Part shown: piece after piece, positions 16,960 through 34,002 of the stretch
How positions within the stretch are numbered: position 1 is the first letter of the stretch
Layout: every line of letters starts with the position of its first letter
From: the human T2T-CHM13v2.0 reference genome, Homo sapiens
NCBI RefSeq assembly: GCF_009914755.1
Contig: NC_060947.1
Length of the DNA stretch: 64,000 nucleotides
Reading direction: 5' to 3' (one strand)
Program-made: the position numbers and the translations under genes
The notes under the pieces: generated by a model
Told to the model about the DNA's origin: nothing
Databases searched by the model: none
Seen by the model: the letters and a program-made list of their open reading frames with translations, nothing else

Positions 16960-17822
16960 CATACAGAAATATTAGTTAAAACCACAGTGGGACACAGTGA
17001 CACAGACATTACAATACAAAGCTAAAAATAAAAGGCAATATAAAGTGTCAGTGAAAATGTAGAGTAAACTGGGAGTATCACGCACTGTTGGAATAATCAC
17101 TTTGAAAAACAGTTTGGCTGTTTCTTAAAGAATTAAACATACACCTACATGTGTTCCAGTTATTCCACTTCTAGGTATTTACCCAAAGGAGAAGAAAGCA
17201 CAAGTTCATATAAAAACTTGTACATAATGTTTATAGCTTTCTTTGTAATAGCTAAAAGCTGGAAGCAACTTCAATGTCTATCAACAGATGAATATATAAA
17301 AAATAGTGGTGTATGGATAAAAATGTGGAATACTACTCAGCAACAAAAATGAATGAACTATTGATATACACAACAACATGGATGATTCTCAGTATCATTA
17401 TGCTCAGTGAAAGAAGGTAGACACAAAAGACTACTTACTCTTTAATTCCCTTTATGTAAAAATCTAGAAAATATAAACTAACCTTTAGTGACAGAAAGCA
17501 GGTTAGCAGTTGCTTGGGAAGTGGGGTGCAGGAAACATGGGAAGGAGAGATTATCAAGAGGCCTGTGAAAATTTTAGGAGATTATAAATGAATATGTTCA
17601 CTATTTTAATTGAGGTGTTGGTTTACCAGATGTGTATGTGTGTGGAAACTTATCAAATTGCATACTTTAAACATGCAGTTTATTGTAGGTTAATTATTCC
17701 TCAATAGACTGTTTAAAACAAAAAGAAAAAAGAAAAACAAAAATACCAGAGACTGGGGCCAAATTATGAAAGATTTTACATAAAAAAAAAGTTTCCCTCC
17801 ATGACACAATTAATCACCTGGA

Positions 17823-17862
17823 TACATACACACACACACACACATACACACACACACACACA
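17823..17862. repeat. Interrupted (CA)n microsatellite
   Basis: Directly visible. Confidence 0.95.
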
Positions 17863-18535
17863 GCCAGTTTAACTGAGCTATAATTACATGCCATACAATT
17901 CATTGATTTAAAGTACAATAAACCATTTAATAAATGTGCATAATTGAATGATTTTTAGTATATACACTGAGTTGTGAGGTATATTTTTAACGCCGCTACC
18001 TCAACAGAATATGTTTTTAGTAATACACATGAATTAACACAAATAATTATAACCAGAAAGAAAATAAAGTGCAAATTTTCTCTATAAAACATTTTGCATA
18101 TAGTTGTCATAGTAAAAATCATAAGGCAATTTTAAGAAAATTAAGCAAAAGTAAAATGTAGGCAACTACTAAAATATGCAACTGATATAAAATTTTAGCA
18201 TTTTGATTTTTATGTAGTATTAATGAGCAATTAAAGAATACATTTCATGCTTGAGTATATTTTTCAAATTCAGTAAGATATTTTATTTTCAAATGCAATA
18301 AAAATGTCTTTATCCCCCCAAATTTTACTCCTTAAATTTAACACTTCGTTTCACCGATTTAGACACCAATAAAAGCAAGTGATTACACAGAATCACAGAG
18401 CTGAGGTGGTTGTTCTTTGCCTTTATAATCACATGCTATAATTTTTAATTTCATGTACTTTTAAAGTGTAGACATATGTGTCATATATTACCACAGGGAC
18501 TGCAGTCTGGAAGTATGCTCAAAGCAAGCTCAAAC

Positions 18536-19027
18536 TGAGGTAGGAGGCAGGACTTGACTCCAGAGGCGGGGCTTGGACAGCAGACCCAATTGAGGACTAG
18601 CTAAACCAGGTCTAGGGCAGAAGCAGCTTTCCTTAAGCCTTGTCTAGCAATGTGGCATGTCAATTTACCGTTGCCATGGCAACACCCAGGCGTTACTGCC
18701 TCTTTCCATGGCAATGACCTGACAACCTGGAAGTTACCACCCTCATCCTAGAAATTTCTGCATAAATTGCTCCTTAATTTGAATATAATTAAAAGTGGGA
18801 ATCAATATGAGTGCAGAACTGCCTCTGAGCTGCTACTCTGGGGACACTGCGTATGGGGCAGCCCTGCTCTGCAAGGAGCAGGAGCAGTACCTCTGCTGCT
18901 CTCTACACTTCTGCTTCAATTAAAGTTGCTGTTTAACACCACTGGCTTGCCTTTGAATTCTTTCCTGAGAGAAGCCAAGAACCCTCCCACCTAAGCCCCA
19001 AGTGTGGGGCTTGCCTGTCCTGCATCA
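18536..19027 (+). mobile_element. ERV1 solo LTR (MER66-like, MER41-related group)
   Basis: TG...CA termini, 4-bp TSD aaac, 'tgaggtaggaggcaggacttgactcc', attaaa signal, 'gaattctttcctgagagaagccaagaaccc'. Confidence 0.85.
18670..18683. promoter_or_regulatory. Perfect palindromic RFX X-box inside the LTR
   Basis: GTTGCCATGGCAAC; motif match only. Confidence 0.55.
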
Positions 19028-19959
19028 AAACAATTCCAAATTGTTAAGAGCTTACTTTAGAAAGGAACAGCCTATGTCTTGGACCAACTATTTAATAAGG
19101 ATTTATCCAAATTAACTTCCCTGTAGAATAAAATGATTATTAAAACATAAATATTAAAAATCAGCTAATTTGCACCTTGCATTGATTTTGTTCAAGCTTA
19201 AATTTAACCACAGCAATCTTTCACAACTCAGACCAAAAGAGGATTTGGGTAGGGAAAAATTGAAAACTTGTATCTGGTGCTAATAAGTAAAAGACTGACT
19301 TTTCCTGGGTTTTATTATTCTTATATTAAAATTCTCTGCAGACAATGTTTTTCTTTATGGCCAGCAAGTGGGCAGACCTCTGCCACTGCCCCCACACTTG
19401 GTAGGACACTGCTCCATCCTAAGCTACTTAACAAGAAAGTGACCTAATTAGTGCTGGGTTTGTGGCCTCCAAACTCTACTATTTGTCTATCAGGGTGCTG
19501 AGAGTGACTCCTGATAGGATGAGTTTTGGGTCCTCCTGAGGGCCTTTACTTGCTTATAGCATAGTGTGGGGTACAACATACACCACTATGACACGGGTGA
19601 CCTGGAGGTGGTTTTATTTTCTTTTTGTGGGGTGTGTTATTGCCACACACATCACACATAAAACCCTCCTCCTAACTGGGTTCTGGGAATTTAGACCTTG
19701 ATGTTGCTACCCACACCTACCCTAAGTACATGTAGAAACGCCAAAGCCCTTTTTCTTCTTGTCTGTGGGGCAAAGTGTTGATTTGTCTTCATTTCTTAGT
19801 CCTCACCCACTCCTTATCCCCCGATGGCTAACTGTATACCTGTTGGTCTGGCCCCCAACCTTACAGGACCCTGCCTCTCTCCCTCTTAGCAGTTTTTCTT
19901 CCTTAACCCCCTCCCCACTACAGACAAACATCCACATCATCCTTTTACATTGTGCTGAT

Positions 19960-19965
19960 TTTATT
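19960..19965 (-). terminator. Polyadenylation signal AATAAA of the lysine-rich gene
   Basis: 33 nt downstream of the TGA, followed by GT-rich 'gatgtggatgtttgtctgtagtgg'. Confidence 0.7.
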
Positions 19966-19998
19966 GCATTCATCAGCATGGGTGGAACACTGTTGGGC

Positions 19999-20340
19999 TC
20001 AGCTTTGGCCTTTATGTGATTGGTGATTCCCCAGAGTTGCTGTTGCTAGTTGTACGTTTCTGATCCAGGCTCTGCATTTACTGGCAGCAGAGATGGTTAC
20101 TTGGGATGGTTTGCTTTTGCCAGCGGCTTCTGGGCTTGCTCTTCTGATTTTCATTTTCTGTTGTCTTTTGTGCTTGCTCTTCTGATTTTTATGTTGTGTC
20201 TTATTCTGCTTGTGGTGACACACAAATATTGTTGGTCTCATTGTTATCCTAGGCTTTTTGGAGCAGGAAGGAGGTGATTGAGTTTTTTTTCTTGAATTCC
20301 TTTGAAGGGGTTTTTTTACCTTTATGATTTTCTTCTCCAC
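19999..20340 (-). CDS. Exon 2 of a lysine-rich CXorf51/SPANX-N-like protein (113 codons + TGA)
   Basis: Acceptor 'ctcactgtgttgtccttccag|GTG' with CTCAC branch-point-like motif; VEKKIIKVKKPLQRNSRKKTQSPPSCSKKPRITMRPTIFVCHHKQNK...; in frame with exon 1. Confidence 0.75.
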   Translation of the reverse strand: MEKKIIKVKKPLQRNSRKKTQSPPSCSKKPRITMRPTIFVCHHKQNKTQHKNQKSKHKRQQKMKIRRASPEAAGKSKPSQVTISAASKCRAWIRNVQLATATLGNHQSHKGQS

Positions 20341-20528
20341 CTGGAAGGACAACACAGTGAGCCAGAAGGACATCGGTTAAGGGGAAGAGAAAGAGGTTGT
20401 ATAGGAAGGGGAGCTTTATGAATAGGAGTGCAGGCTGAGGAAGGGGGTTGTGCTAGGCAAGGACAGGATAGGGGTCTTGAGAGAATAGAGGGGGAAGAAA
20501 AGAAGGAACAAGGATAGGATCATCTGAC

Positions 20529-20672
20529 CTTGCCATTTTTGTTGGTCTTTTGTTGAGAAGAGTTCTTCTTTTCCTTCTTCTCTTTGGTTCTTGGGGTAGG
20601 CTTTTTCGTGCTTAGAATTGGTTGTTTCATATTTTCTTTAGGCTTCACTGGTGTGTGGGTCTCCTTAGCCAT
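20529..20672 (-). CDS. Exon 1 of a lysine-rich CXorf51/SPANX-N-like protein (48 codons)
   Basis: Kozak aatATGG; MAKETHTPVKPKENMKQPILSTKKPTPRTKEKKEKKNSSQQKTNKNGK; donor AAG|gtcaga; phase-0 intron 20528-20341. Confidence 0.75.
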
Positions 20673-20830
20673 ATTTAAGCCTCCCAATGGTCTACCCCAT
20701 GCTCCTGACCTCCTTATGTATACCCACCCCTGGGTAATGAGGAGCCCCACCCTTCAGCTTTGTTTGGCCAGAATGGGGCACCCCTATCCAATGGTAGTCC
20801 TGGGGTGGCTTGGACATCACAAAGCGCTGA
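20673..20830 (-). promoter_or_regulatory. Putative proximal promoter and short 5' UTR
   Basis: TATA-like TATACATAA (20722-20714), CCAAT (20788-20792), CRE-like TGATGTCC (20819-20812). Confidence 0.45.
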
Positions 20831-21169
20831 TACCTCTGTGGGGGTGGTGTTGCTGGGGTAGCCAAAATGTGGTTGGAGAAAGGGGATTTTTCCACCCCAA
20901 ATACTACCCGAAGGTCCATTTCAAAATGACCTGCTACCCTCATCATTTCCCCATGTTCAATTCTGGTGGGTCACATAGCAGGGAGAAGGTGTTTCCTTAA
21001 AGGCATTCCCTACAGCCACCGCCATTCAGTGGTTCATTCTGTTCTCTCCCACCCTTTACCATGACCTACTATTTTAGATGTCTTATCTAAAATCCCTCCA
21101 AGGTACAGTGGCCTTATTTAATTCTCAGTCAAAATATGAATCATTCCACTTCCCTCAAACAAATTTCCA

Positions 21170-21470
21170 TTTGTATCTGTTTTGGTATGGTTTGTAAACT
21201 AAGACAGGCATTTTTGGGTTTGTTTTTTTTTTTTTGGTTTACATTTCTAAATGGTTGAGGAAAAAAAGCAAAAGAATATTTTATGATGTAAAAATTATGT
21301 GAAATTGAAATTTCAGTGTTCATAAAACTTTATTAGAACACAGATACACTAACTGTCAGCTATGGCTGCTTTCACACTACAACAGAGTAGTTGCGACAGA
21401 GATTGTATAGCCTGCACCACATAAAGTATTTGCTATCCGTCCTTTTAGAAAAAGAGATTGCCAACTCCTC
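21170..21470 (+). mobile_element. MER58B-like hAT-Charlie MITE
   Basis: 'ctatggctgctttcacactacaacagagtagttgcgacagaga...agaaaaagagattgccaactcct'. Confidence 0.8.
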
Positions 21471-23900
21471 ATCTATTCTGTTCCATTGATCTATTTGCCT
21501 ATCCTTATGCCAAAACCACATTGTCATGATTAATTTCATGTCATGTCACAATTTTATGCTAAGACATAAAATTAGGTAACACAGCTCATCCAACTTTGCT
21601 CCTCTTTTACAAGATCATTTCAGCTATTCTAGGTCCCTCATACATTCTTTTTTATTATTATTATGCTTTTAAGTTCTAGGGTACAAGTGCACAACGTGCA
21701 GGTTTGATACATAGGTATACATGTGCCATGTTGGTTTGCTGCACCCATTAACTCGTCATTTACATTAGGTATATCTCCTAATGCTATCCCTCCCCTAGCC
21801 CCGGACTCCCCAACAGGCCCCACTGTGTGATGCTCCTCACCCTGTGTCCAAGTGTTCTCATTGTTCAATTCCCGCCTATGAGTGAGAACATGTGGTGTTA
21901 GGTTTTCTGTTCTTGAGATAGTTTGCTCAGAATGATGGTTTCCAGCTTCATCCATGTTCCTGCAAAGGACATGAACTCATCCTTTTTTATGGCTGCATAG
22001 TATTCCATGGTGTATATGTGCCACATTTTCTTAATCCAGTCTATCACTGATGGACATTTGGGTTGGTTCCAAGTCTTTGCTATTGTGAATAGTGCCGCAA
22101 TAAACATACATGTTCATGTGTGTTTATAGTAGCATGATTCATAATCCTTTGGGTATATACCCAGTAATGGGATGGCTGGGTCAAATGGTATTTCTAGTTC
22201 TAGATCCTTGAGGAATCCCCACACTGTCTTCCACAATGGTTGAACTAATTTACACTCCCTACATTCTTAAAAATTTTAGAATCAGGTTTTCTATTAATGT
22301 TAAAGCCTGTTATGATTTCATTGTGATGGTGCTGAATTTATAAATCAATAAGGGGAGAATTGAAATCTTAACAACTTTGAGACCTTCAATTTGTAAACGT
22401 ATATCTCTTCATTTATTTAGGTGTTTAATTTATGTCTCCAATGTTTTGCAATGTTCAATTTGTTTAAAATTGGTATTGTTTCCTCCTTAAGTATTTGGTA
22501 GTAGTCATCTGTGAAGACATCCATTCCTGAAACTTTCCTTTTGAGAAGCTTTTATGTTTTGAATTAACTTTGGTATTTACACTATTCAAAAAGTCCAGTC
22601 TAATGTTATTTTGGAAAATTGTTTTTCAAAGGCTTTTTCCATTTCATCTAAATTGTCAGATTTGTTGGCATAAAGTTGTACATAATATTCCCTTCATAGT
22701 TTTGAAATGCGTGTAGCATGTGTAGCGATGCAACCTCTATAATTTCTGAAATTGGTAACTTATGTTTTGTGTTTTTTTTCTTGATTACTTTTAGCTAGGC
22801 TTTTATGAATTTTATTCCTCTAAAAACTATCTTCAGCTTCCTTGATTTCTGTCTATCATTTTGGCTTTTTCTATTTCAATTATTTCTGTTCCTTATCTTT
22901 ACTATTTTATTTTTTCTATTCAATTTCAATGTAATTTGTAGCCCCTTCAGGTGAAATCCTATATTATTCACTTCAAACCATTCTTCTTTTCTAATATAAA
23001 AATAAAGCTATAAATTTTCCACTTAGGACTGCTTAAGCTGCATCTCACAAAATTTGATATATTGTGTTTTCTTATGCAGTTTGATATATCTTTAATTTCA
23101 CTTCTAATTTCTTTTTAAACCATGAATTGTTTAGAAGAATGTCCCTAATTTCCAAGTATTGGGGATCTTCTAGATATGTTTTTGCTATTGGTTTCTGATT
23201 TAATTTCTTTGTGGTCAGAGAACATATTTCACTATTTAAATATTTTAAAATATATAGAAACTCATTTTATGACCCAGAATTTGGTTTACCTTGGTGTCGG
23301 TCAAATTTGGTTGATAGGAGTTTTCAAATACTACATATATCCTTACTAATTTATTTGTCTGCTTCATTTGTCAATAATTAATAGAAGAGATTTTAAATTT
23401 ACAGCTGTGATTATGGATTTATCTATTTCTCTTTTAACTTTGTAAAATTTTGCTTCATGTATTTTGAAGCTCCGTTATTTCTTCCATACTCATCTACTGT
23501 TTGCATTGCATATCTCCTCCATCCTGGTACTTTCAACCTAGCTGTGTTTTGTATTTTAAGTGCATTATTTGTTAAGAGCATATAATTGGATATTGATTTT
23601 TAAATCAAGTTCATCAACCTCTGTCTTTTGTTGGAGTGTTTAATACATGTGTATTTAGTGGGATTATTGACATGGCTGTGTTTAAGTGTACCCACTTTCT
23701 TTTTGTTTTCTATTTGGTCTCTCTGTTATTTGTTATATACATATCCTTCTTTTGTGTCTTCATTTGGGTTGAGAGTTTTTTTTTTTTTTGTATTTTATTC
23801 TGTTTTCTCCATTGGCTTTTTAATAATAGCTTTTTATATTATTATTTTTTATTTGTTGTGTGGATTACAATATGCATCCTTATCTTGTTACATTCAACAC
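21471..23900 (-). mobile_element. Old L1M ORF2 remnants
   Basis: 'tctattctgttccattgatctattt' and 'ctataaattttccacttaggactgcttaagctgcatctcacaaaatttgatat'. Confidence 0.75.
21650..22259 (-). mobile_element. 5'-truncated L1PA (PA6/7-like)
   Basis: Canonical L1PA 3' UTR and ORF2 C-terminus; TSD tacattctt (21641-21649, 22260-22268). Confidence 0.93.
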
Positions 23901-23907
23901 AGAATTA

Positions 23908-24902
23908 ATGGAAGTTCTAGCCAGATCAGTCAGCAAGAGAAAGAAAAAAAAGGCATCCAAATAGAGAAGTCAAGCTATCTCTCTACACAGACAATATGAT
24001 TCTATACCTAAAAAACCCTAAAGAGTCCACCAAAAGGCTCCTGGAACTGATAAATGACTTCAGTAAAGTTCCAGGATACAAAAATCATTGTAAAAAATCA
24101 GTACCATTTCTATACACAAATAATGGTCAAGCTGACAGCCAAATCAAGAAGTAATCCCATTTACAATAGCCACAAAAAAATTACCTAGGAATACATCTAA
24201 CCAAGGAGATGAAAGAGCTCTACAAGGAGATGTACAAAACACTGCTGAAAGAAGTTGTAGATGACACAAACAAATGGAAAAACATTCCTTGCTCATGAAT
24301 TGGAAGAATCAATATCATTCAAATGGACATACTGCCCAAAGCAGTCTACAGATTTCGACGTTATTCCTGTGAAACGACCAACATCACTTTTCACAGAATT
24401 GGGAAGAAACTATTCTAAAATTCATATGGAACCAAAAAGAGCCAGAATAGTCAAAGGACTTCTAGGCAAAAAGAACAAAGCTGGAGGCATCACACTACCT
24501 GACTTCAAACTATACTACAAAGCTACAGTGACCAAAACAGCATGATAGTGGTACAAAAACACACATAAACCAATGGAACAGAATAGAGAGCTGAGAAATA
24601 AACCCACACACCAACAGCCATCTGATCTTTGACAAAGTCAATAAAAGTTAGCAGTGAGGAAACAGCAGTCTTCATTAAATGGTGCTGGGATAGCTGGCTA
24701 GACATATGCAGAAGAATAAAACTGGACCCCTACCTTTCACCATATAAAAAAGTAACTCAAGGTGGATTAAAGATTTAAATGTAAGACTTCAAACTTTAAG
24801 AATCCTAGAAGAAAACCTAGGAAACACAACTCTGGACATCAGCCTTGGGAGAGAATTTATAGCTAGATCCTCAAAAGCAATTGTGACAACAACAAAAATT
24901 GA
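23908..24902 (+). mobile_element. L1PB/L1PA16-type ORF2 mid segment
   Basis: Encodes decayed [25 protein letters not shown]. Confidence 0.9.
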
Positions 24903-25030
24903 AGTGAGTCACGCCTCTGTCACCCTGGAGTAACCACATTGGTGCGTTCTCCGAGGCTTCTCCATCTCATTGTGAGGCTACTGGGAACAAGGCTTTATCA
25001 GGGTTTATGAGAGCAAAGTAGACCTGTGAT

Positions 25031-28000
25031 CAAGATGGTCAACTAGACACAGCCAGGGGGAACATCTGCCACTGAGGGATTGGGACATTGGGAAGACTGG
25101 TGCACTCTTAGCAGATCTTCAAAGGGAAGGCATTGAGAGCGGTTGTAGGGAAGACACAGATGTCGGGCGGAAGAGGGAGGAAGCTGGGAACCCTGCATGG
25201 GGCTACCATGCACCAGGACCCATTCCTATCCCCCAACAACTCCTGGGGAAGGGGTGAGTTGAAGAAGGAAAGAGCAACCTGCTCTAACCATGGGCCTTTG
25301 GAATCCTGGCCAGAGGAGTCCCCATGACCACTGTGGACACTTGAGTTGGCAAAGACAGCTGCTTACAGAAGTGGTCAGGGCAGAGTTCCAGCCAGTGTGG
25401 AGCCCAGAGGGTTTCATGCAGGAGCATCTGTAGTGGATCACAGCCAGGGACACCCATTCCCTTAGGCTCAACTTACTCCTATAGGAGACTTAGCCCTAGA
25501 GGAATTGTCACACATGAACTCTGCAGGGTGGTCTTGGCCATGAGATGGGACTGGTCCAACCTGAACACCCCTCAGCCTGCTGGACTCTCCCTGGGTGCTT
25601 GCAGTGCAGCCTCAGGTACCCAAAAGGGGTGTTCCTCTTGGTGGCCTGCATCACAGCTCCTGTGCTGGCAGACCACACCTGACAAGCAGAGAGCTCCACC
25701 AGAGCAGCCTCCACAGACACATATCAGCCTGCACATGCTCTCCTTCCACTGCAGCCTCCCCAGTGGTACCTTGCCTGCAGATACTAGCCCATGGCCACCT
25801 CCCAAATCACTTTGCTGGCATGTGTGTGCACAGGCAGATGTGCACCCTGCCATGCCACTTCTGCCAGCATGAATGCAGCCTGCCATTCCCATCAAAGCTT
25901 TGGAGGGCATGGAGCCCCTTAGCCTTACCTGCCACCAGCACCCTGCCCCTGTGTTGATGCTGCTGTTGCCAGAAACTAGGCAAAGAGAACAGAGACCTGC
26001 CCTGGCCCTGAGCAGCCACCGCCACCCATAAACACACACAAAGAGCTCACACAGTCCTGTGGCCACCAGGGCCCCACCACTATGCTAAAAGTGTCACCAG
26101 CACAAACATACACAAAGATGCCAGTGGGGCCCCCTGCTTCCCCATGACATGCTGCCAATGCTGCTGCTGCAAATGCCCACATGACAACCAGCATCCTGGC
26201 ACCTGCTAGCACCCCACTGCAGCTGAAAAGTGGACACCTTATCATGCTGCCACTGATACCACTCCTCCCATGGGCGAACAAAGATAAATCATGCTGCCGC
26301 AGCCCTACGAAGTGCTTTGGTTGGCACCGCCCATTGGACTGTTGTGACTAGTGGTCTGGGAGCACCTTGGCCCCTCCAGTGCAGCAGGTTCCTAACCTTA
26401 AGTGGCCAGAGAACAAAGCCAGGGCCTGATACTAGTCCTCCAGAGTTAGGACACCCAGTCTAGGAGTCCTGAGCTAAGCCTTAGCCCCCTAAAATCTTCC
26501 AGAAATGAATCCAGTTGACTGAAAAAACTTATGCCACAATCAAACCCCTAAGGTCATGAAATAGCATAAAAGGGGGAAAAAAATCCAAAAATAGCAACTT
26601 CAAAGATTGAAGGAAAATCAGCCCACAAAGATGAGAAAGAGCAATTGCCAGAAGTTTGACATTTCAAAAAGCCAGAGTGTCTTCTTTCCTCCAAACGACC
26701 ACACTAGTTCCCCAGCAGTGTTTCTTAAAGAGATGGAAATGACTGAAATGACAGAAATAGCATTCAGAATATTGATAGGAACAAAGATCATCAAGATTCA
26801 GGAGAACATTGAAACCCAATTCAAGAAAGCTAAGAATCACAATAAAATGATACAGGAGCTGACAGACAAAATAGCCAGTATTGAAAGGAACATAACTGAC
26901 TGATTCAGCTGAAAAACACACTACAAGAATTTCATAATGCAATTGTAAGTATTAACAGCAGAATAGACCAAGCCGAGGAAAGAATCTTAGAGCGTGAAGA
27001 CTGCCTTTCTGAAATGACAGTCAGAGAAAAATAAAAAAAACAAGAATGGAAAGGAATGGAAAAAAACCTCTGAGAAATATGGGATTATGTAAACAGACCA
27101 AATCTGTAACTCATTGGCATCCCTGAAAGAGATAGGGAGAATGGAAACAATTTGGAAAACTTATTTCAGGTTATCATCCATGAGAAATTCTGCAACCTAG
27201 TTAGAGAGGCCAACATTAAAATTAAGCTAATACAGAGAACTTTAGCAAGATACTTCACTAGAAGATCATCTCCAAGACATAATTATCAGATTCTCCAAGA
27301 TCAGATGAAAGAAAAAATCTGTTAAAGGCAGCTGGAGAGAAACGCCAGGTCAGCTGCAGAGGGAAGCCCATCAGACTAACAGCAGACCTCTCAGCAGAAA
27401 CCTTTCAAGCCAAAAGAGACTGGGGGCCTGTATTTAACATTCTTATAGAAAAGAAATTCCAACAGAGAATTTCATATACAGCCAAACTAAACTTCATAAG
27501 CAAATGAGAAATAAGATCCTTTTTGGACAAGCAAATGCTGAGGGAATTTGTTACCACCAGACCCGCCTTTTTAGAGCTCCTGAAAGAAGCAATAAATATG
27601 GAAAGGAAAGACCATTACCAGCCACTACAAAAACACTTAAGTACACGGGCCACTGACACTGTAAAGCAACCACACGAACAAGTTGGCATTATAACCAGCT
27701 AACAACATGATGACAGGATCAAATCCACACATATCGATACTAACCTTGAATGTAAAGAGGCTAAATGCTCCAGTTAAAAGTCACACAGTCTCAAGCTGGA
27801 TAAAGAAGCAAGACCTGATGGTAGGTATGCTGTCTTCAAGAGACCCATCTCATATGCTAGTTTAAAGTCCGTTTTGTCTGAGATTGTGAGCCCTGCTTTT
27901 TTCTGGTTTCCATTTGCTTGGTAGATTTCCTCCAACCCTTTATCTTGAGCCTGTGGGTGTTCTTGCATGTGAGAGTTTCTATTTCTTCCTGATTTAATCT

Positions 28001-29560
28001 AGGAGGGTTGTAAATTTCCAGGAATTTGTCCACCTCCTCTAGATTTTCTAGTTTGTGCACATAAAGGTTTTCATAGTAGCCTCAAATGATCTTTTGTATT
28101 TCTGTGGCACCAGTTATAATACCTCTTGTTTCATTTCTAATTGAGCTGATTGGGATTTTCTCTCTTCTCTTCTTGGCTAATCTCACTAATGATCTATTCA
28201 TTTTGTTTATCTTTTCATATAATCAACTTTTTGTTTGAATTATCTTTTGTATTTTTCTTTTTGTTTAAATTTCATGTAGTTATGCTCTGATATTTGTTAT
28301 TTCTTTTCTTCTGCTGGGTTTGGGTTTGGCTTGTTCTTGTTTCTCTAGTTCCTTGAGGTGTGACCTTAGATTGTCTATTTGTTCTCTTTCAGATTTTCTG
28401 TTGTAGTCATTTAATGCTATGAAATTTCCTCTTAGCACTGCTTTTGCTGTATCTCAGGTGTTTTGATAAGTTGTGTCATGATTATCATTCAGTTTAATGA
28501 AATTTTAAATTTCCATCTTGATCTCATTGTTGACGCAGAGATCATTCAGGAGTAGATTATTTAATTTCCATGTATTTTTATAGTTTTGAGGATTCCTTTT
28601 GGAGTTAATTTCCACTTTTATTCCATTGTGGTCTGAGAGGATACTTGATATAATTTTGATTTTCTTAAATTTATTGAGACTTGTTTTGTGACCTACTGTA
28701 TGGTCTATCTTGGAGAATGTTTTATATGCTGATGAAAATAATATATATTCTGCAGTTCTTAGGTAGAATGTTTTCTAAATGTCTATTAAGTCCACTTTTT
28801 CTAGTGTATCATTTAAGTCCATTGTTTCTTTGCTGATTTTCTGCTTTGATGGCATGTCTAGTACTGTCAGTGGAGTATTGAGTTCCCCCATTATTATTGT
28901 GTTGCTGGTAGGCTGTGGAGAACAGCGAATGCATATACATTGTTGGTGGGAGTGTAAATTAGTTTAGCTACTGTGGAATTAAGTTTGGAGATTTCTCAGA
29001 GAACTTAAAACAGAACTACCATTCAACCCAGCAATTATACCACCAAAAAGCATGTGCACTCAAATGTTTATCACAGCACCATTCACAATAGCAAAGAGGT
29101 GGAATCAACCTAGGTGCTCATCAATGGTGGATTGGATCAAGAAAATGTGGTACACATATGCCATGGAATACTATACAAAAAGAATGAAAGATGAAAAAGG
29201 TATACAAAAAGATGAAAAAGAATAAAATCATGTCCTTTGAAGCAACATGGAGGCAGCTGGAGGCCATTATCCTAAGTGAATTAATGCAGTAACAGAAAAC
29301 CAAATGCCACATGTTCTCACAAGTGGGAGCTAAACATTGGGTACTCATGAACATAAAAATGGCAACAGTAGATACTGAGGACTACTAGAGTGGGAGGGAG
29401 AGGGGGCAATTGTTGAAAAACTACTGGGTACTATGCTCTCTACCTAGATGATGGGATCAATCATACCCTAAACCTGAGCATCATGTGATATAGCCATGTA
29501 ATAAACCTGCACATGTTCCCCCTGAATGTAAAATAAAAGTCGAAGTTATAACAAACAAAT
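25031..29560 (+). mobile_element. Rearranged L1PB/L1P4 element: 5' UTR, ORF1, ORF2 start, inverted internal pieces (27858-28905), 3' end
   Basis: 5' motif caagatggtcaactaga; GC-rich UTR; ORF1-like peptide at 26607; ORF2 start atgacaggatcaaatccacac; strand switches at 27858 and ~28905. Confidence 0.88.
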
Positions 29561-31081
29561 AATATACCATTTATGTATAATAATAGTAAAATTATGTCAT
29601 GTTTACACCCTTCCTGCTTTTAGTGTTATCATTGTTTTATGTTTTACTTTTACTTATAACACCTCAAATATGTTGCTGTTATTACATGATTTCAACATTC
29701 AATTGCCCTTTAAAAATTTAAAGGAAAATAATGTGTTATATTTTACTACCTATTTAGAATTTCCAATGCTCTTCATTTATTACCTTATGTCTGAATTTCC
29801 ATATTGTTTTATCATTTTCATAGGTTTTCCTTAGCATTTTCATAGATTAGATACGCTGGCAACACAATTTGCCTTTATGTTTACAAGATTTTTTACTGGA
29901 CATAGATTTGTACATTGACAGGTTTTTTGAAATCACTGTATCACCAGCATCTGGCACGATTCCTGACACACATAGTGAAGTCATTCCTTAAACACAAGAT
30001 ACATCCTAAAATCAACATGTAAAATGAAAATCATCTGGTCAAATGACTTTGCGTAATGCCTTAGGAAGGTGCGACATTGAAGAATGACATTCTTTTCTCA
30101 GAACGTTCAGCACTGCCAGCTTCTCCTCCAGTGCAGGAGCAGATGACTGGGTTGTTCCTTTTGTTTGACCCGCAGATTAAGTAACTGGCTTGCACTCGTG
30201 GCTGACCACACTACATGCAAAATATGTATCTAAACAAAAGAATGACGTTCAGCAAAGTGAGGTGTTCACACTATGAAATGAAAGAACAAATTCGTGCCTT
30301 TCATCTCACACTCAACCCAGGGTATATATTAACTGAATATAATGGTGGGATAATTTGCCTGTACTATTTAAACAATTTTCTCCTAGTGTGTATAGCTGAA
30401 TTCATGTAAATGAAATATGTCCATGAATGCCAATGTCATAGCCACTCAAAAAGTTTCTTTGCATGAGTGACTTAATTAACGCTGTTCTCTCTACTTAAAT
30501 ATCTTCCTTTTGTCTCTGCCTATCAAAACCATACACATTTTCACAGCCAAGCTGATGAACCACTTATTCTCCCCAGCAGGCTAATTATTTCATTTATGAT
30601 GTGTCTACTCTGCAGCACATAATGCAAAACACCTAATACTCTTTGCCCTCCTTTAATGAATCCTCTTCCCATTTTAAAGATGACACTTAGATGTAGAGAG
30701 TTTAACTATCTTGCCCAAGATTGGTGTCATCTACCTTGTTCACTGCTGTCTCCCCAGTGCCAAGAACAGTGTCTTAACAAAAATCTGTTGACTGGGTAGA
30801 ATGGTTGTCAGATTCTTGACCTGTTTCAACTCATGACCCTAACCATGCTTTCTTAGTCTGTCATTTGCATACTGGCCCCAGCCAATAATATATTAATATT
30901 ATAGATCTTTGTTTTACATTTGTATTACAAAATCTGTAGGTATCTTAAATGTTTTTCCAAAGTGCACCTGCCATTTGAGAGTCTGATATGCTTCTCCTTC
31001 CTCATAGCCCCCGTAAGATGTAGGGTCTGTACCACCCACATGGCACTTAATAAGATATTGCTTTGCATTGTAGGTACTTGC

Positions 31082-31585
31082 TGTCATACCAGGCTCCTAT
31101 TAACTTCAACAGGGATGGCGCCGGGTTCAAGAGGCTGAAGAAGAGACCCAGAGCCAGCAAATGAGACAGAGGGTTTCATTAGCAGGAAACTTATATGCAG
31201 GGATGGTCCGGTGGTGCTGGACTGGACAGGAGAACCACCTTACATACAGGGAAAGTCCAGTGGTGGCGGGCTGGGCAGGACAACCACAACGGCTTACAAA
31301 AAGCAATCAGTTTATATAAGATATTCACTTAGCACCCTCCCCCTAACAACTTCCATCCAGCAAATTTCATTTAACCCAAAACAAAGGGCCTCACTCCCTT
31401 CTGCATTCCACTGGATGGCCAGGGGTCAGATGTTCCTCCTGGATATACAGGCAAGGAACGTATCTCCCAGTTGGCCATTTCTGGATTCCTCAGCTCAGAA
31501 CACACACTCAGGTGCACCTGCCATATAGGGTAATTCTCAGGTTATGCTTAAGTTTAATTTCACTTCCAGGTGTGTCTACCATACA
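31082..31585 (-). mobile_element. ERVL-class solo LTR (LTR32/LTR47-like)
   Basis: TG...CA termini; 5-bp TSD cttgc/tttgc; reverse strand begins tgtatggtagacacacctg...cttaagcataacctgagaat. Confidence 0.75.
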
Positions 31586-31689
31586 TTTGCATACACATCT
31601 CTACTGCTGTAGGAGGATAGATGCTCACTGACCGGTGTCATTCTCTGAAGTATTCATTAATGGAGTTTTGTTTAACATTGATTGATTGA

Positions 31690-31942
31690 TTTTAAGTTGA
31701 AATATAATGATATGTATTTGTCATATATAACATGTTTTGAAATATGTATGAATTTGGGAATGTGGCTAAATTGAGCTAATTAACATATGCATTACCTCAC
31801 ATACTTATTATTTTGTGGTGAGAACACCTAAAATCTACTCTCTTAGCAATTTTTAAGAATACAATACATTGTTATTAACTATAATCGCCATGTTGTACAA
31901 TAGATCTATTGAACTTATTCTTCCTAACTGAAATTTTGTATT
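31690..31942 (-). mobile_element. L1MA 3' end fragment
   Basis: 'gctaattaacatatgcattacctcacatacttatt...gtggtgagaacacctaaaatctactctcttagcaat'. Confidence 0.85.
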
Positions 31943-32659
31943 TGGACCCTAGTCTTGACAAGGTAAATGACTAGAGTTAATTGCCCTTCTGCTGACATGG
32001 TCAAGACCTTGACAATCTAGACCAAAGTAGATGTCTAAGCCTTGCAGACTCCTGGTTTCCATCATATTAGTGTCCTCTTGCCCATACTGACAGGAATTGG
32101 CCAACTGGTAACTATGCCTCAGTCTGTCTAATCAGGTGAGACCGTTTTCTTTAGCAACTGGCAACTTCTGGAACATCAGAGATTTACAAAATGTATTTTA
32201 CTGCTGACTAAATACGCAAATAAGAAGATAGAAGGGTGACTATTTAAATATTGATGTGAATTACTTAGATCTTAAGATTTACTAATGATTTATACATATC
32301 TGCCATGTGGCTTCGTGGAACCCTTGGATCATTCTAAAGTTCTGGACTAGGAACATGTTTAGCTTTTAACCAGAAAAAGAGATGCAACGATAATCATCAA
32401 CCACAAATGCATCTATTTTAATAAGCAGGGTTATGGTGAGGTTTGCAAATGCAGAAGTCATAGTTAGAAGGGATCATATAGTAAAAGGATCCAAGTTCAG
32501 AAAACTATCAATGGCAAAATCTAAACTAGGTAAAAATGCCTAAACTAGACTTCTAAGAGAATTTTTCCATGGGCTGTACCTGTATTATCCTTAACCAGTC
32601 AATCATTTTGATCACTACAGTGTGGGTTCAGGAGGGGTGGGTGGGGAGACAAATTTTGG

Positions 32660-33205
32660 CATTATGTACTAAGTGCTTACTGAATGCCAAGTTCTTTAAG
32701 TGGATTATCTCATTTAATTATTACAACTCAGGATGAAGATACTGTTATTATCACCATCTTATGGAAGAGGAAACCGAGGCTCACACAGATCGTGATTTGT
32801 TTATGATCATAGCCTATAAGGGCAGAGCTTAGATTTGAATCCAGATCTGACTCCATGTCCTGTGCTCATTTTGCTATACCACACTGCCTCTCCGTGGTCT
32901 CCTATTAACCTATGATAATAATAGCAATGTTTATTGGGAACTATAAGAGCAAAACAATTGAAAATCTGGGCTCGTGCTTTATAAAAGTTACCATTCATTG
33001 AGCGCTAGGCATGGTAATAAGGGCTTTACATATAATAGCTCGTTTAATCATCAAAACCACTCTACGATGTAGGCATTATTATTATATTTGCATTTTACAG
33101 ATGAGGGAAGTAAAGTTCAGAGGGGTTAAATGACTGGCCCATAGTTAGCTAGAAAGTTTCAGAGCCAGATTTCAAACCTGTCAGTTACCAGAGCTAGAGT
33201 CCTTA
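32660..33205 (-). mobile_element. Two MIR SINEs (~32660-32890 and ~32985-33205)
   Basis: Cores 'atggaagaggaaaccgaggctcacacag' and 'cattttacagatgagggaagtaaagttcagaggggttaaatgactggccc'. Confidence 0.8.
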
Positions 33206-33209
33206 TACC

Positions 33210-33375
33210 TCCAGTTCAAACCTGAATGTGCATAAGAATCACCTGATGAGGCTATGAAAATGTATATTCCTTAGCCGCATTCCTGAGAGTCTGAATAAGT
33301 AGGTCTTTTAAAGAAGTTCCCCAGGGGATTGGAATGCAAGGCCTCCATGGACCATCCTATGAAAACAGTGATCTG
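33210..33375. mobile_element. MER5-type hAT MITE
   Basis: 'gcataagaatcacctg...tctgaataagtaggtct...aagttccccaggggatt'. Confidence 0.6.
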
Positions 33376-33719
33376 CAGCACAAATATGGGCCTGGGGGAA
33401 AGAAAATTGAGTACAGCATAGGTTCCATGAGGAGCAGTCACAATTTTATCACAGTGCTGCTATGACTGTTTCTTTCTCCTTCTGACTTGCCCAAATTTGG
33501 ACTCCGTTTGCCTTTCTAGAACAAAAGCATTACCCTTTCTTTTTACTATCTCACACGGGCCAGATTCTGCTTTCCCAGCAAAATTAACAGCACCAATAAC
33601 AACAAATCGACTTACTCATTTTTCCTGATAGACCGGGGCTTCTTACTCTATTTTGTACCATGGATCCCATTGGCCTCTGGTGGAGCCTACGGTCCCCTTC
33701 TCAGAGTAATATTTCTTAA

Positions 33720-33981
33720 TTATTATTACTTTAAAGACAGGGTCTCTTTCTGTCATCCAGGCTGGAGTGCAGTGGCACAGTCATGACTCACTGCAGCCTC
33801 GATTTCCCGGGCTTCAGCAATCCTCCCACCCTCAGCCTCCTGAGTAGCTGGGACTACAGGTGCATGCCACCACACCTGCCTAATTTTTGTATTTTTTGGT
33901 AGAGACAGGGTTTTGCCATAGTTGCCCAGGCTGGTCTTGAACTCCTGGGCTCAAGCAATCCACCCGCCTTGGCCTCCCAAA
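33720..33981 (-). mobile_element. AluJ, slightly 5'-truncated, inserted in a hAT MITE remnant
   Basis: 'actcctgggctcaagcaatcc'; degenerate TSD agagtaatatttcttaa/agaataatactttttaa. Confidence 0.9.
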
Positions 33982-34002
33982 AGAATAATACTTTTTAATG
34001 GC

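What the first reader, a model, noticed from the sequence alone, without database searches (positions are those of the whole stretch)
19960..20722. Hidden intact two-exon gene encoding a 161-aa lysine-rich CXorf51/SPANX-N-like protein
Seen in sequence: two unremarkable minus-strand ORFs (20520-20750 and 19999-20373) join in frame across a 188-nt GT-AG phase-0 intron (AAG|gtcaga...ctcactgtgttgtccttccag|GTG). The ATG at 20672 has a strong Kozak context, the TGA ends at 19999, and AATAAA follows 33 nt later with a GT-rich tract. The product has about 35 K + 10 R versus 6 E and no D by manual count. It sits in a ~2-kb repeat-free island amid LINE-dense DNA. From memory, it is colinear with human CXorf51 (MAKVTSEPQKPNED...KKGKT...GVK-GLKTTRKAKRPLRGSS versus MAKETHTPVKPKEN...KEKKN...NGK-VEKKIIKVKKPLQRNS), and its exon 2 resembles SPANX-N (SLKKMKTSEYSTVLAFCYRK versus CSKKPRITMRPTIFVCHHK). 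Inference: a divergent, possibly unannotated or mis-annotated testis/spermatid basic nuclear protein gene that arose by DNA-level duplication (intron retained), probably X-linked. I cannot tell whether it is already annotated.
Basis: partly seen in the sequence, partly recalled or inferred. Interest (0 to 1): 0.92.

Follow-up and report, generated by a model that had tools for sequence, protein, structure and literature searches.

The report
Overlooked CXorf51-like sperm-type protein gene
A small two-exon gene on the human X chromosome that the reference annotation lists as non-coding RNA carries an intact reading frame for a very basic 161-residue protein, a conserved mammalian relative of CXorf51 and, more distantly, of the SPANX sperm proteins.

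Summary
On the minus strand there is an ATG at 20672, a 48-aa exon, a 188-nt phase-0 GT-AG intron, a 113-aa exon, a TGA at 19999 and AATAAA 33 nt later. The product has 35 K, 10 R, 6 E and 0 D. The exons match RefSeq lncRNA LOC105373343.

The frame is not a chance ORF. Proteins 75-97% identical over exon 2 are annotated in gorilla, siamang, a langur and three New World monkeys, and relatives at 44-50% in wolverine and donkey. They carry the same precomputed Pfam accession (PF27987) as CXorf51.

A profile comparison with CXorf51 gives 98.8% probability (E 5e-17). Promoter, exon 1, intron position and phase, and the start of exon 2 also align at DNA level. SPANX-N shares the promoter, exon 1 and the 3' end of the intron, but the Pfam SPAN-X model does not match.

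A second, inverted copy lies 198 kb away.

Transcription in testis, translation and function were not testable here. Coding exons are no better conserved than the intron, apart from a C-terminal Cys/Trp motif.

Verdict: probably a real, fast-evolving, spermatid-type basic protein gene mis-typed as lncRNA in human. It is a new human member of a known family.

The parts
20682..20830 (-). Promoter region shared with CXorf51, SPANX-N and other X paralogs; includes a CCAAA box (CCAAT in CXorf51)
   Evidence: 93 of 133 aligned bases (70%) identical to the CXorf51 upstream region. 57-69% identical upstream of the TATA-like box, and 62-72% from that box to the ATG, against 7 human paralog loci. Genome-wide hits to SPANX-N2/3/4/5 at E 1e-11 to 1e-14 cover this part plus exon 1. 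Non-primate read-through translations align across it.
20713..20722 (-). TATA-like box TATACATAAG, about 35-40 nt upstream of the annotated transcript start (20681)
   Evidence: Read. Conserved as GGTATACATA in CXorf51. Copy B carries a derived T>G at 20716.
20673..20681 (-). 5' UTR of the RefSeq model (9 nt)
   Evidence: Hub annotation of XR_007091113.1; sequence.
20529..20672 (-). Coding part of exon 1, 48 aa (P0001). The second in-frame Met (codon 15) lies in the stretch that aligns just upstream of the SPANX-N start.
   Evidence: 100% identical in copy B. BLASTP to CXorf51 exon 1: 10/22 identities, E 8e-4. The donkey ortholog's exon 1 aligns to SPANX-N exon 1 and its 5' flank.
20341..20528 (-). 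188-nt pyrimidine-rich phase-0 GT-AG intron, homologous to the 190-nt CXorf51 intron and to the 3' end of SPANX-N introns
   Evidence: (122 of 185 aligned bases, 66%). Among paralogs it is better conserved than the exons.
19999..20340 (-). Coding part of exon 2, 113 aa plus TGA (P0002)
   Evidence: Orthologs at 75-97% identity in primates.
20212..20238 (-). Conserved core RPTIFVCHH (residues 83-91), shared in kind with CXorf51 (..GRYHR..) and SPANX (..TIIVYYYRK..)
   Evidence: P84, C89 and H91 are invariant in 11 orthologs. Aligned by hhalign to CXorf51 and to SPANX exon 2.
20038..20109 (-). C-terminal motif PSQVTISAASKCRAWIRNVQLATA (residues 126-149), specific to this subfamily
   Evidence: T130, K136, C137, A139, W140, R142 and A147 are invariant in 11 orthologs from primates and non-primates. 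KC[RK]AW is present in 17 of 47 family proteins and in none of the 15 CXorf51-type ones.
19940..19998 (-). 3' UTR with AATAAA at 19960-19965; a GT-rich tract follows 19940
   Evidence: hub annotation for the transcript end.
17573..33321 (.). About 15.7-kb segment duplicated in inverted orientation at chrX:138316139-138332349. It carries copy B of the gene, about 198 kb away.
   Evidence: blastn pieces at 94.9-97.6% identity. 352 substitutions in 15,646 aligned bases, unevenly spread.

Best explanation
The locus is a real protein-coding gene that human RefSeq types as lncRNA (LOC105373343). It encodes a 161-residue, lysine-rich, very basic (pI about 11.3), probably disordered protein.

The protein belongs to an old eutherian subfamily of the CXorf51 family (Pfam PF27987). 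One source names a member of that family 'spermatid nuclear transition protein 4-like'.

Shown:
- The spliced ORF and its signals.
- Its homology to CXorf51 along promoter, exon 1, intron and the first 104 residues.
- Its more distant kinship with SPANX-N.
- Intact orthologous ORFs in primates, a carnivore and an equid.
- A subfamily-specific C-terminal Cys/Trp motif.
- A second, inverted human copy.

Inferred:
- It is transcribed from a TATA promoter of the SPANX/CXorf51 type in post-meiotic male germ cells.
- It is translated.
- It acts as a polycationic nucleic-acid or chromatin-binding protein during spermatid nuclear remodelling. The charge would give the binding, and the conserved RPTIFxCxH core and the ..SKCRAW.. 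tail would give specificity, such as a short helix or a Trp/Cys contact.
- The window's copy (A) looks like the better kept of the two.
For: ORF and signals:
- ORF, splice sites, Kozak context and poly(A) signal. The junction is the same as in the RefSeq transcript (hub).
- An ORF this long arose in 2 of 5000 shuffles. 74 of 1449 possible single substitutions would create a stop.

Orthologs:
- 8 of 8 candidates matched exon 2 at E 1e-61 to 8e-16. They include gorilla (161 aa), siamang, Trachypithecus, Callithrix, Cebus and Plecturocebus.
- The profile search adds Gulo gulo and Equus asinus, the latter named 'CXorf51A-like'.
- An exhaustive profile search of 1.84 billion proteins gave 32 proteins at E <= 1e-3, of ortholog type, CXorf51 type and SPANX-N-like type.
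- In a tree of 35 rows the human gene sits with gorilla and siamang inside a clade of 10 rows with SH-aLRT 97, apart from CXorf51 and SPANX-N.
- The C-terminal motif is nearly invariant from primates to non-primates.

Homology to CXorf51:
- hhalign probability 98.8%, E 5e-17.
- Same architecture: 44/48-aa exon 1, 190/188-nt phase-0 intron.
- DNA identity is 70% upstream, 62% in exon 1 and 66% in the intron.
- CXorf51 proteins carry PF27987.1 in 5 of 5 cases. Orthologs of this ORF carry it in 7 of 8 cases.

Family context from papers:
- CXorf51A is 108 aa, basic and disordered by NMR (PMC8481210, abstract and section 3).
- CXorf51 is testis-expressed (Jackson et al. preprint, passages).
- CXorf51 is seen in spermatid and sperm RNA once multi-mapped reads are kept (PMC3627604, passage).
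- SPANX-N is post-meiotic, and a promoter fragment bound CTCF in vitro (PMC1831492, passages).

Promoter: the CCAAA..TATA region is also kept in a non-primate read-through translation.
Against: - No expression, ribosome or peptide data could be consulted. RefSeq's own pipeline calls the human model non-coding.
- The local Pfam copy gives no match for either exon or for 10 orthologs. PF27987 is not in it, so the human sequence itself was never scored against that model.
- The orthologous 'proteins' are automatic predictions. Species with a broken frame would not appear in a protein database, which is an ascertainment bias.
- The low divergence of the exons between the two human copies (2 of 554 bases against 2.25% overall) is not significant. 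2,099 of 14,245 same-shaped windows (14.7%) have 2 or fewer differences. A nearly identical 2-kb tract holds L1 fragments, so patchy gene conversion explains the low divergence.
- Both differences in the coding sequence change residues.
- Exons are no better conserved than non-coding parts. Against 7 human paralogs, exon 1 is 43-57% and exon 2 is 52-64% identical, against 61-80% for the intron. Non-primate read-through translations match the intron about as well as the exons.
- The human-Cebus protein distance of about 0.2 per site is near what I would expect for unconstrained X-linked sequence. That expectation is my own estimate.
Confidence: 0.72

Rival explanations
1. The locus is a relic in humans. 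The gene coded for a protein in the eutherian ancestor and perhaps still does in other species. In humans it is only a transcribed non-coding RNA, or a dying duplicate pair whose frame is still open by luck or by recent loss of constraint.
For: - RefSeq types it as lncRNA (hub).
- The rate of protein change in primates is close to a neutral expectation (together with my own estimate).
- Exons are not better conserved than the intron.
- Copy B has derived changes in the TATA-like box and near the start site, and N63I at a column invariant in 8 orthologs.
Against: - The frame is very exposed: 74 single substitutions would make a stop. Yet it is open in both human copies and in all 7 named primate and 2 named non-primate records found.
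- Copy A keeps the ancestral promoter states shared with CXorf51.
- The C-terminal motif is intact in human.
- Its accepted coding paralog CXorf51 evolves even faster on the same tree: about 0.29 against 0.2 per site between human and Cebus.
Confidence: 0.2
2. It is a proper member of the SPANX family, a sixth SPANX-N-type gene.
For: - Promoter plus exon 1 match SPANX-N2/3/4/5 at E 1e-11 to 1e-14.
- The 3' end of the intron is similar.
- The exon-2 core aligns weakly.
- Both have a two-exon plan and lie in Xq27.
Against: - The Pfam SPAN-X model finds 19 exon matches on the X, but none at either copy.
- It scores nothing on the two exons or on 10 orthologs at E <= 10.
- The product is basic with no Asp, whereas SPANX tails are acidic (alignment).
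- The tree puts it apart from SPANX-N.
Confidence: 0.03
3. It is the human ortholog of the biochemically described boar spermatid transition protein TP4 itself, rather than a paralog of it.
For: - A CXorf51-type marmoset protein of the same Pfam family is named 'spermatid nuclear transition protein 4-like' by a source.
- One unnamed ortholog-type protein (P0018) is 138 aa with two Trp. From recall only, boar TP4 is 138 residues and was studied by Trp fluorescence.
Against: - The TP4-like name sits on a CXorf51-type protein, while the donkey protein of this subfamily was named 'CXorf51A-like'. That suggests the TP4 reference sequence is nearer CXorf51.
- No TP4 sequence was available. The papers held only cite it, and the primary paper is not held.
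Confidence: 0.1
4. It is a chance ORF in a spliced non-coding transcript with no relatives.
For: Lys-rich, A-rich sequence with low complexity.
Against: 2 of 5000 shuffles reach this ORF length. Orthologs and paralogs match at E down to 1e-61 and 5e-17.
Confidence: 0.01

Closest known systems
CXorf51A/CXorf51B (human Xq27.3 palindrome genes; Pfam PF27987)
   Same: - X-linked, two exons, with a phase-0 intron of 188 against 190 nt at the same place.
- Homologous CCAAT/TATA promoter, MAK.. start, ..K.K[RK]PL.. at the start of exon 2, and an aromatic/His core.
- Basic composition.
- hhalign 98.8% over residues 1-104.
- Present as an inverted pair.
   Different: - 161 against 108 aa.
- The last roughly 57 residues, with the Cys/Trp motif, have no counterpart in CXorf51.
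- Separate clade.
- The arms of this pair are 95-97.6% identical and 198 kb apart. CXorf51 lies in a tight palindrome of 98.6% identity.
- Lys-rich rather than Lys/Arg-rich.
SPANX-N (Pfam SPAN-X, PF07458)
   Same: - Homologous promoter and 5' region and exon 1.
- Homologous 3' intron end.
- Colinear exon-2 core.
- Xq27 location and a small, probably unfolded product.
   Different: - Fails the SPAN-X model.
- Basic tail instead of an acidic one.
- 188-nt intron against about 8 kb in SPANX-N2/3 (coordinates).
- SPANX-N is reported as acrosomal (PMC1831492, abstract).
Boar/ram spermatid transition protein TP4 (recalled from Akama et al. 1995/1999; seen here only as citations and as a source's name for a family member)
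   Same: A small, basic spermatid nuclear protein. A source name links it to the same Pfam family.
   Different: No TP4 sequence was compared here. It is probably nearer the CXorf51 branch. Rat 'TP4' is an unrelated HMG-box protein (PMC5036535, passages).

Membership tests
CXorf51 family (Pfam PF27987) | Match to the family's Pfam model | not testable with these tools
   PF27987 is absent from the local Pfam copy. By proxy, 7 of 8 close relatives of exon 2 carry precomputed PF27987.1, including gorilla at 97% identity, and so do 5 of 5 CXorf51 proteins. The one relative without it (P0009) lacks residues 55-93.
CXorf51 family (Pfam PF27987) | Significant sequence or profile similarity to CXorf51 proteins | tested here: met
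   hhalign probability 98.8%, E 5e-17, 106 columns. CXorf51-type proteins are found by the ortholog profile at E 1.8e-9 to 5.6e-4 in 1.84 billion proteins. Single-sequence BLASTP is weak: E 8e-4 and 0.011.
CXorf51 family (Pfam PF27987) | Same gene plan: X-linked, two exons, short phase-0 intron at the homologous site, homologous promoter | tested here: met
CXorf51 family (Pfam PF27987) | Basic, intrinsically disordered product | tested here: inconclusive
   The basic charge is shown: 45 K+R against 6 E, pI 11.3. No PDB relative was found.
CXorf51 family (Pfam PF27987) | Testis or spermatid expression | not testable with these tools
   No expression data are at hand. There is only the RefSeq transcript model (hub) and the reports for CXorf51.
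SPANX (Pfam PF07458) | Score above the SPAN-X gathering cut-off (22 bits) | tested here: not met
   No hit at E <= 10 for the two exons or for 10 orthologs. The genome-wide scan finds 19 SPANX exon matches but none at either copy.
SPANX (Pfam PF07458) | Homologous promoter/5' region and exon 1 | tested here: met
   E 1e-11 to 1e-14, 66-68% identity over about 300 nt to four SPANX-N loci. The donkey ortholog aligns with SPANX-N exon 1.
SPANX (Pfam PF07458) | Acidic C-terminal part | tested here: not met
   0 Asp and 6 Glu; every 20-residue window from 1 to 160 has positive net charge. Compare the SPANX exon-2 alignment.
Boar-type TP4 | Orthology to the sequenced boar/ram protein | not tested
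   No TP4 sequence was available.

The most novel reading that the evidence does not exclude
Humans have a second CXorf51/TP4-type spermatid basic protein, in two copies. It has been kept since before primates and Laurasiatheria split, it has its own C-terminal Cys/Trp module, and it is missing from the human protein set because it is typed as lncRNA. SPANX, CXorf51, this gene and at least six further X-linked loci all descend from one ancestral two-exon gene. In that superfamily the promoter and the short pyrimidine-rich intron are held more tightly than the coding sequence. That points to a constrained regulatory or splicing element combined with diversifying selection on the proteins.
Probability: 0.45. 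Interest if true: 0.65.

Novelty: new member of a known kind. Interest (0 to 1): 0.5.

Why it matters
If it is translated, a conserved mammalian protein is absent from the human RefSeq protein set. It would then be invisible to exome interpretation, proteomics databases and infertility gene panels.

The two copies have exons that differ at 2 of 554 bases. Standard RNA-seq pipelines that drop multi-mapping reads would therefore under-count the gene, a problem already described for CXorf51 and SPANX (PMC3627604).

The DNA-level link between CXorf51, SPANX-N and several unplaced X loci gives one origin for several testis gene families of Xq27-q28. None of the five listed papers that mention both CXorf51 and SPANX (six hold both terms) appears, by title and abstract start, to discuss such a link (search; I opened only one of them, PMC3627604).

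Tried and rejected
- Between-copy constraint. Exon depletion of differences looked striking at first: 2 of 554 in the exons, against 5 of 188 in the intron and 84 of 2934 in the flanks. It fell away once the whole 15.7-kb duplication was scanned: 14.7% of same-shaped windows are as low, and a near-identical tract holds L1 fragments.
- Pfam on the single exons and on the orthologs gave nothing useful. PF27987 is not in the local library.
- A profile search of the human genome with an alignment is not accepted.
- PDB profile search: 0 matches at E <= 1.
- Rfam over 17000-34000: 0 families.
Nothing can be said on helices or disorder.
- Literature:
  - 'LOC105373343': 0 papers.
  - 'nuclear transition protein 4': 0 papers.
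  - TP4 appears only in reference lists.
  - The FEBS Letters paper is not held.
- Large X palindromes of Jackson et al. These require arm identity above 99% (passages), while this pair is 95-97.6% identical. I did not see their Table 1, which is an image, or their supplements.
- P0018's mass (16.2 kDa) did not match my recalled mass for boar TP4. No identification is claimed.
- Other exon-2 hits in the genome were E 1.28-9.63 and were treated as chance (7 of 9 matches).
Full report
**What is in the sequence**

On the minus strand a TATA-like box (TATACATAAG, 20722-20713) is followed by an ATG at 20672 in the context aaatATGg.
- Exon 1 codes 48 residues and ends AAG|gtcaga at 20529/20528 (P0001).
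- A 188-nt pyrimidine-rich intron ends ...ctcactgtgttgtccttccag|GTG at 20341/20340.
- Exon 2 continues in phase 0 for 113 residues to the TGA at 20001-19999 (P0002).
- AATAAA lies at 19965-19960, 33 nt past the stop, with a GT-rich tract after 19940.
- The stop-to-stop ORFs are 20520-20753 and 19999-20376.
- The 161-residue product has 35 K, 10 R, 6 E and no D. Its mass is 18.4 kDa, its pI 11.3 and its net charge about +39.

The hub's RefSeq row shows lncRNA LOC105373343 with exons 19940-20340 and 20529-20681, which is the same junction. The ORF fills 486 of the 554 transcript bases.

An ORF this long arose in 2 of 5000 dinucleotide-preserving shuffles of the spliced transcript. With the intron retained the frame stops after 50 residues.

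**A second copy**

The window's own genome has exactly one other strong match to each exon. It lies at chrX:138329244-138329914 on the plus strand. Exon 1 is 100% identical and exon 2 is 98% identical.

The remaining exon-2 matches have E 1.28-9.63 (7 of 9) and I treat them as chance.

blastn of fetched flanks shows an inverted duplication of about 15.7 kb. Window 17573-33321 matches chrX:138332349-138316139 in pieces of 94.9-97.6% identity, about 198 kb apart. I counted 352 substitutions in 15,646 aligned bases, or 2.25%.

From recalled X-chromosome divergences I would date the duplication to roughly the great-ape ancestor. That date is an inference.

Copy B differs from copy A as follows:
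- N63I, at a column invariant in 8 orthologs.
- Q101R.
- A derived T>G in the TATA-like box (20716).
- Derived changes at 20688-20690.

At 20716 and 20688-20690, copy A keeps the state shared with CXorf51.

**The test that failed**

The exons carry 2 differences in 554 bases, against 5 in 188 in the intron and 84 in 2934 in the flanks. This looked like constraint, but divergence along the duplication is patchy.
- 2,099 of 14,245 windows with the same exon-shaped mask (14.7%) have 2 or fewer differences.
- A 2-kb tract with 0-4 differences per 554 bases contains L1 ORF2 fragments.

Gene conversion is therefore enough to explain the pattern, and I draw no support for coding from it. Both coding differences are non-synonymous.

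**Orthologs**

Exon 2 found 8 of 8 candidates at E 1.3e-61 to 7.7e-16 in the 5.8-billion-protein collection:
- gorilla (161 aa, 97% identical over exon 2);
- siamang (160 aa, plus a shorter isoform);
- Trachypithecus francoisi, Callithrix, Cebus and Plecturocebus (75-88%);
- one unnamed read-through translation.

A profile of these (A1) added Gulo gulo (146 aa) and Equus asinus (153 aa, named 'uncharacterized protein CXorf51A-like' by its source). That search returned 13 proteins at E <= 1 among 8000 scored candidates.

All of these are automatic predictions.

The alignment of 11 ortholog-type proteins (A3) has invariant P84, C89 and H91 in a core RPTIFxCxH. It also has invariant T130, K136, C137, A139, W140, R142 and A147 in a C-terminal motif. 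Primates carry a 13-residue in-frame insertion before the motif.

**CXorf51**

I located the CXorf51 palindrome in the same genome. Its arms are 98.6% identical over 16.4 kb.

The gene there has a 44-residue exon 1, a 190-nt phase-0 intron and a 64-residue exon 2. The total of 108 aa is the length given for CXorf51A in PMC8481210 (abstract and section 3). Its exon 2 is 100% identical to a chimpanzee record named 'CXorf51B isoform 1'.

The DNA alignment to the window gene runs from the CCAAT/TATA region to the first ~120 nt of exon 2, after which the two diverge:

| Segment | Identity |
|---|---|
| Upstream (CCAAT/TATA region) | 93 of 133 aligned, 70% |
| ATG and exon 1 | 62% |
| Donor | AAGGT[C/G]AGATGATCC |
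| Intron | 122 of 185 aligned, 66% |
| Acceptor and start of exon 2 | alignable for ~120 nt |

Other comparisons:
- Profile against profile, orthologs (A3) versus 14 CXorf51-type proteins (A4): hhalign probability 98.8%, E 5e-17, 106 columns, residues 1-104 against 1-100.
- Single-sequence BLASTP is weak: E 8e-4 for exon 1 and 0.011 for exon 2.
- CXorf51 proteins carry precomputed PF27987.1 in 5 of 5 cases. Relatives of this ORF carry it in 7 of 8 cases.
- That model is not in the local Pfam copy, so the human sequence itself was not scored. The local copy gives nothing for the exons or for 10 orthologs.

**SPANX**

The Pfam SPAN-X model finds 19 exon matches on the X among 25 scored candidates, but none at either copy. 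Which match belongs to which SPANX gene is my assignment from recalled gene order. One locus (L022) encodes the peptide that PMC1831492 gives as SPANX-N positions 2-21.

Evidence for a relationship all the same:
- The donkey ortholog's exon 1 hits four SPANX-N exon-1 places at whole-genome E 0.023-0.36. It aligns to the SPANX-N exon 1 and its 5' flank.
- A read-through translation of a non-primate ortholog (P0013) matches the last ~100 nt of SPANX introns.
- A whole-genome DNA search with window 20341-20830 (promoter, exon 1, intron) returned 15 matches, all 15 on the X. They are the two copies, SPANX-N2/3/4/5 (E 1e-11 to 1e-14, 66-68% over ~300 nt), and places at 11.48, 138.79, 143.57, 147.32, 149.77, 149.78, 150.17 and 151.50 Mb.
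The score is weak: probability 11%, E 0.0027.

The gene is therefore a relative of SPANX, not a member.

**Family census**

The exhaustive profile search (A2 against 1,835,955,588 representatives) gave 32 proteins at E <= 1e-3, 11 at <= 1e-10 and 3 at <= 1e-30.

- 17 have KC[RK]AW;
- 15 have the CXorf51-type G[HR]Y.. motif;
- none has both.

Two intermediate proteins (P0026, P0043) score 18.8 and 18.0 bits on SPAN-X, below the cut-off of 22. The other 27 of the 29 scanned do not hit it.

The tree used 35 rows, IQ-TREE quick search, LG+G4.
- I left out read-through, truncated or fragmentary rows: P0006, P0009, P0010, P0013-P0017, P0020-P0022, P0025, P0037, P0040, P0042 and P0049.
- The human gene sits with gorilla and siamang inside a 10-row clade (SH-aLRT 97) with a species-like order, apart from CXorf51 and SPANX-N.
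- The tail columns unique to this clade were not removed and may inflate that split.
- Human-Cebus path length is about 0.2 per site, against about 0.29 for CXorf51.

**Is it coding?**

For:
- The frame is long and fragile, since 74 of 1449 single substitutions give a stop. Yet it is open in both human copies and in every named relative found.
- The tail motif is held across orders.
- Its accepted coding paralog changes faster.

Using recalled neutral rates, I estimate several disabling events would be expected on the human lineage alone since the split from New World monkeys. This is an estimate, not a computation on aligned DNA.

Against:
- The coding parts are the least conserved parts of the locus:

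| Segment | Identity to 7 human paralog loci |
|---|---|
| Upstream of TATA | 57-69% |
| TATA to ATG | 62-72% |
| Intron | 61-80% |
| Exon 1 | 43-57% |
| First 141 nt of exon 2 | 52-64% |

- Non-primate read-through translations align to the window from 20984 to 20035, with the intron about as alike as the exons.
- Broken orthologs would not be in a protein database.

This pattern fits a fast-evolving disordered protein with constrained regulatory DNA. It does not prove translation. I put real coding function in humans at about 0.7.

**How it most likely works (inferred)**

By homology of the promoter with SPANX-N, and by the reports on its relatives, the gene is probably switched on in post-meiotic male germ cells.
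- A SPANX-N promoter fragment bound CTCF in vitro (PMC1831492, passages).
- SPANX-N is post-meiotic (PMC1831492, abstract).
- CXorf51 is testis-expressed (Jackson et al. preprint, passages).
- CXorf51 is present in round-spermatid and sperm RNA (PMC3627604, passage).

The product has +39 charge spread along the chain, and CXorf51A is disordered by NMR (PMC8481210). It would therefore bind nucleic acid or chromatin electrostatically. The conserved core and the Cys/Trp tail would act as the specific contact.

One source names a family member 'spermatid nuclear transition protein 4-like'. From recall, boar TP4 is a DNA-binding spermatid protein. I could not compare its sequence.

**Novelty**

The family is known, orthologs are annotated as proteins elsewhere, and the transcript is annotated in human. 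What is new is that the human locus (two copies) looks coding, and that CXorf51, SPANX-N and further X loci share promoter and intron.

'LOC105373343' occurs in 0 papers of the searched library. Six papers hold both 'CXorf51' and 'SPANX'. By title and abstract start, the five listed appear to treat other subjects. I opened only PMC3627604. Supplements were not consulted.

Noticed in passing
window 20341-20528 (intron) and 20682-20830 (promoter); loci L049, L051-L056: Across 7 human X paralog loci the short pyrimidine-rich intron (61-80% identical) and the promoter (57-72%) are better conserved than the coding exons (43-64%). Either the intron and promoter hold a constrained element, or the exons are under diversifying selection.
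   Followed up: partly
L051 = chrX:11481601-11483500 (minus strand): A full-length paralog at about 11.48 Mb matches promoter, exon 1 and intron at E 5e-34 and 68% identity. It has an open exon-1 frame starting MAEITDKPQ.. The exon-2 frame that resembles the family (..KKPTIIVCYHMLNKK) is not the frame continued from exon 1 under the homologous acceptor. It may be a pseudogene or a diverged gene.
   Followed up: partly
L053 = chrX:138792501-138794400, about 220 kb beyond the window's end: A close relative of the Xp22 copy, with promoter and intron at 70-78% identity to the window gene. The start codon position reads Leu (..FNLAEI..), so it is probably a pseudogene.
   Followed up: partly
L052 (chrX:147.32 Mb), L054 (149.78 Mb), L055 (150.17 Mb), L056 (143.57 Mb); also hits at 149.766 and 151.50 Mb that were not fetched: Further X-linked loci share the family's promoter and intron. 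L054-L056 also carry CXorf51-like exon-2 frames (for example ..GRTLFSHYHEVNKNLNQ..), and L052 has a weaker exon-2 likeness seen only by eye. I could not tell whether they are annotated genes.
   Followed up: partly
window 22559-24775: A tract of the inverted duplication has only 0-4 differences per 554 bases, against 2.25% overall. It contains L1 ORF2-like fragments, which is the signature of gene conversion between the two copies 198 kb apart.
   Followed up: yes
chrX:138329057-138329228 (copy B promoter), equivalent to window 20860-20688: Copy B has 10 differences in the 180 bases upstream of the ATG. They include the TATA-like box and three adjacent bases next to the annotated start site, plus N63I at a column invariant in 8 orthologs. 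Copy B may be the decaying partner.
   Followed up: partly
L049/L050 = chrX:145060001-145080000: The CXorf51 palindrome in this assembly has arms 98.6% identical over 16.4 kb and its centre near 145,071,794. The two gene copies face away from the centre, each about 2.3-2.8 kb from it.
   Followed up: yes
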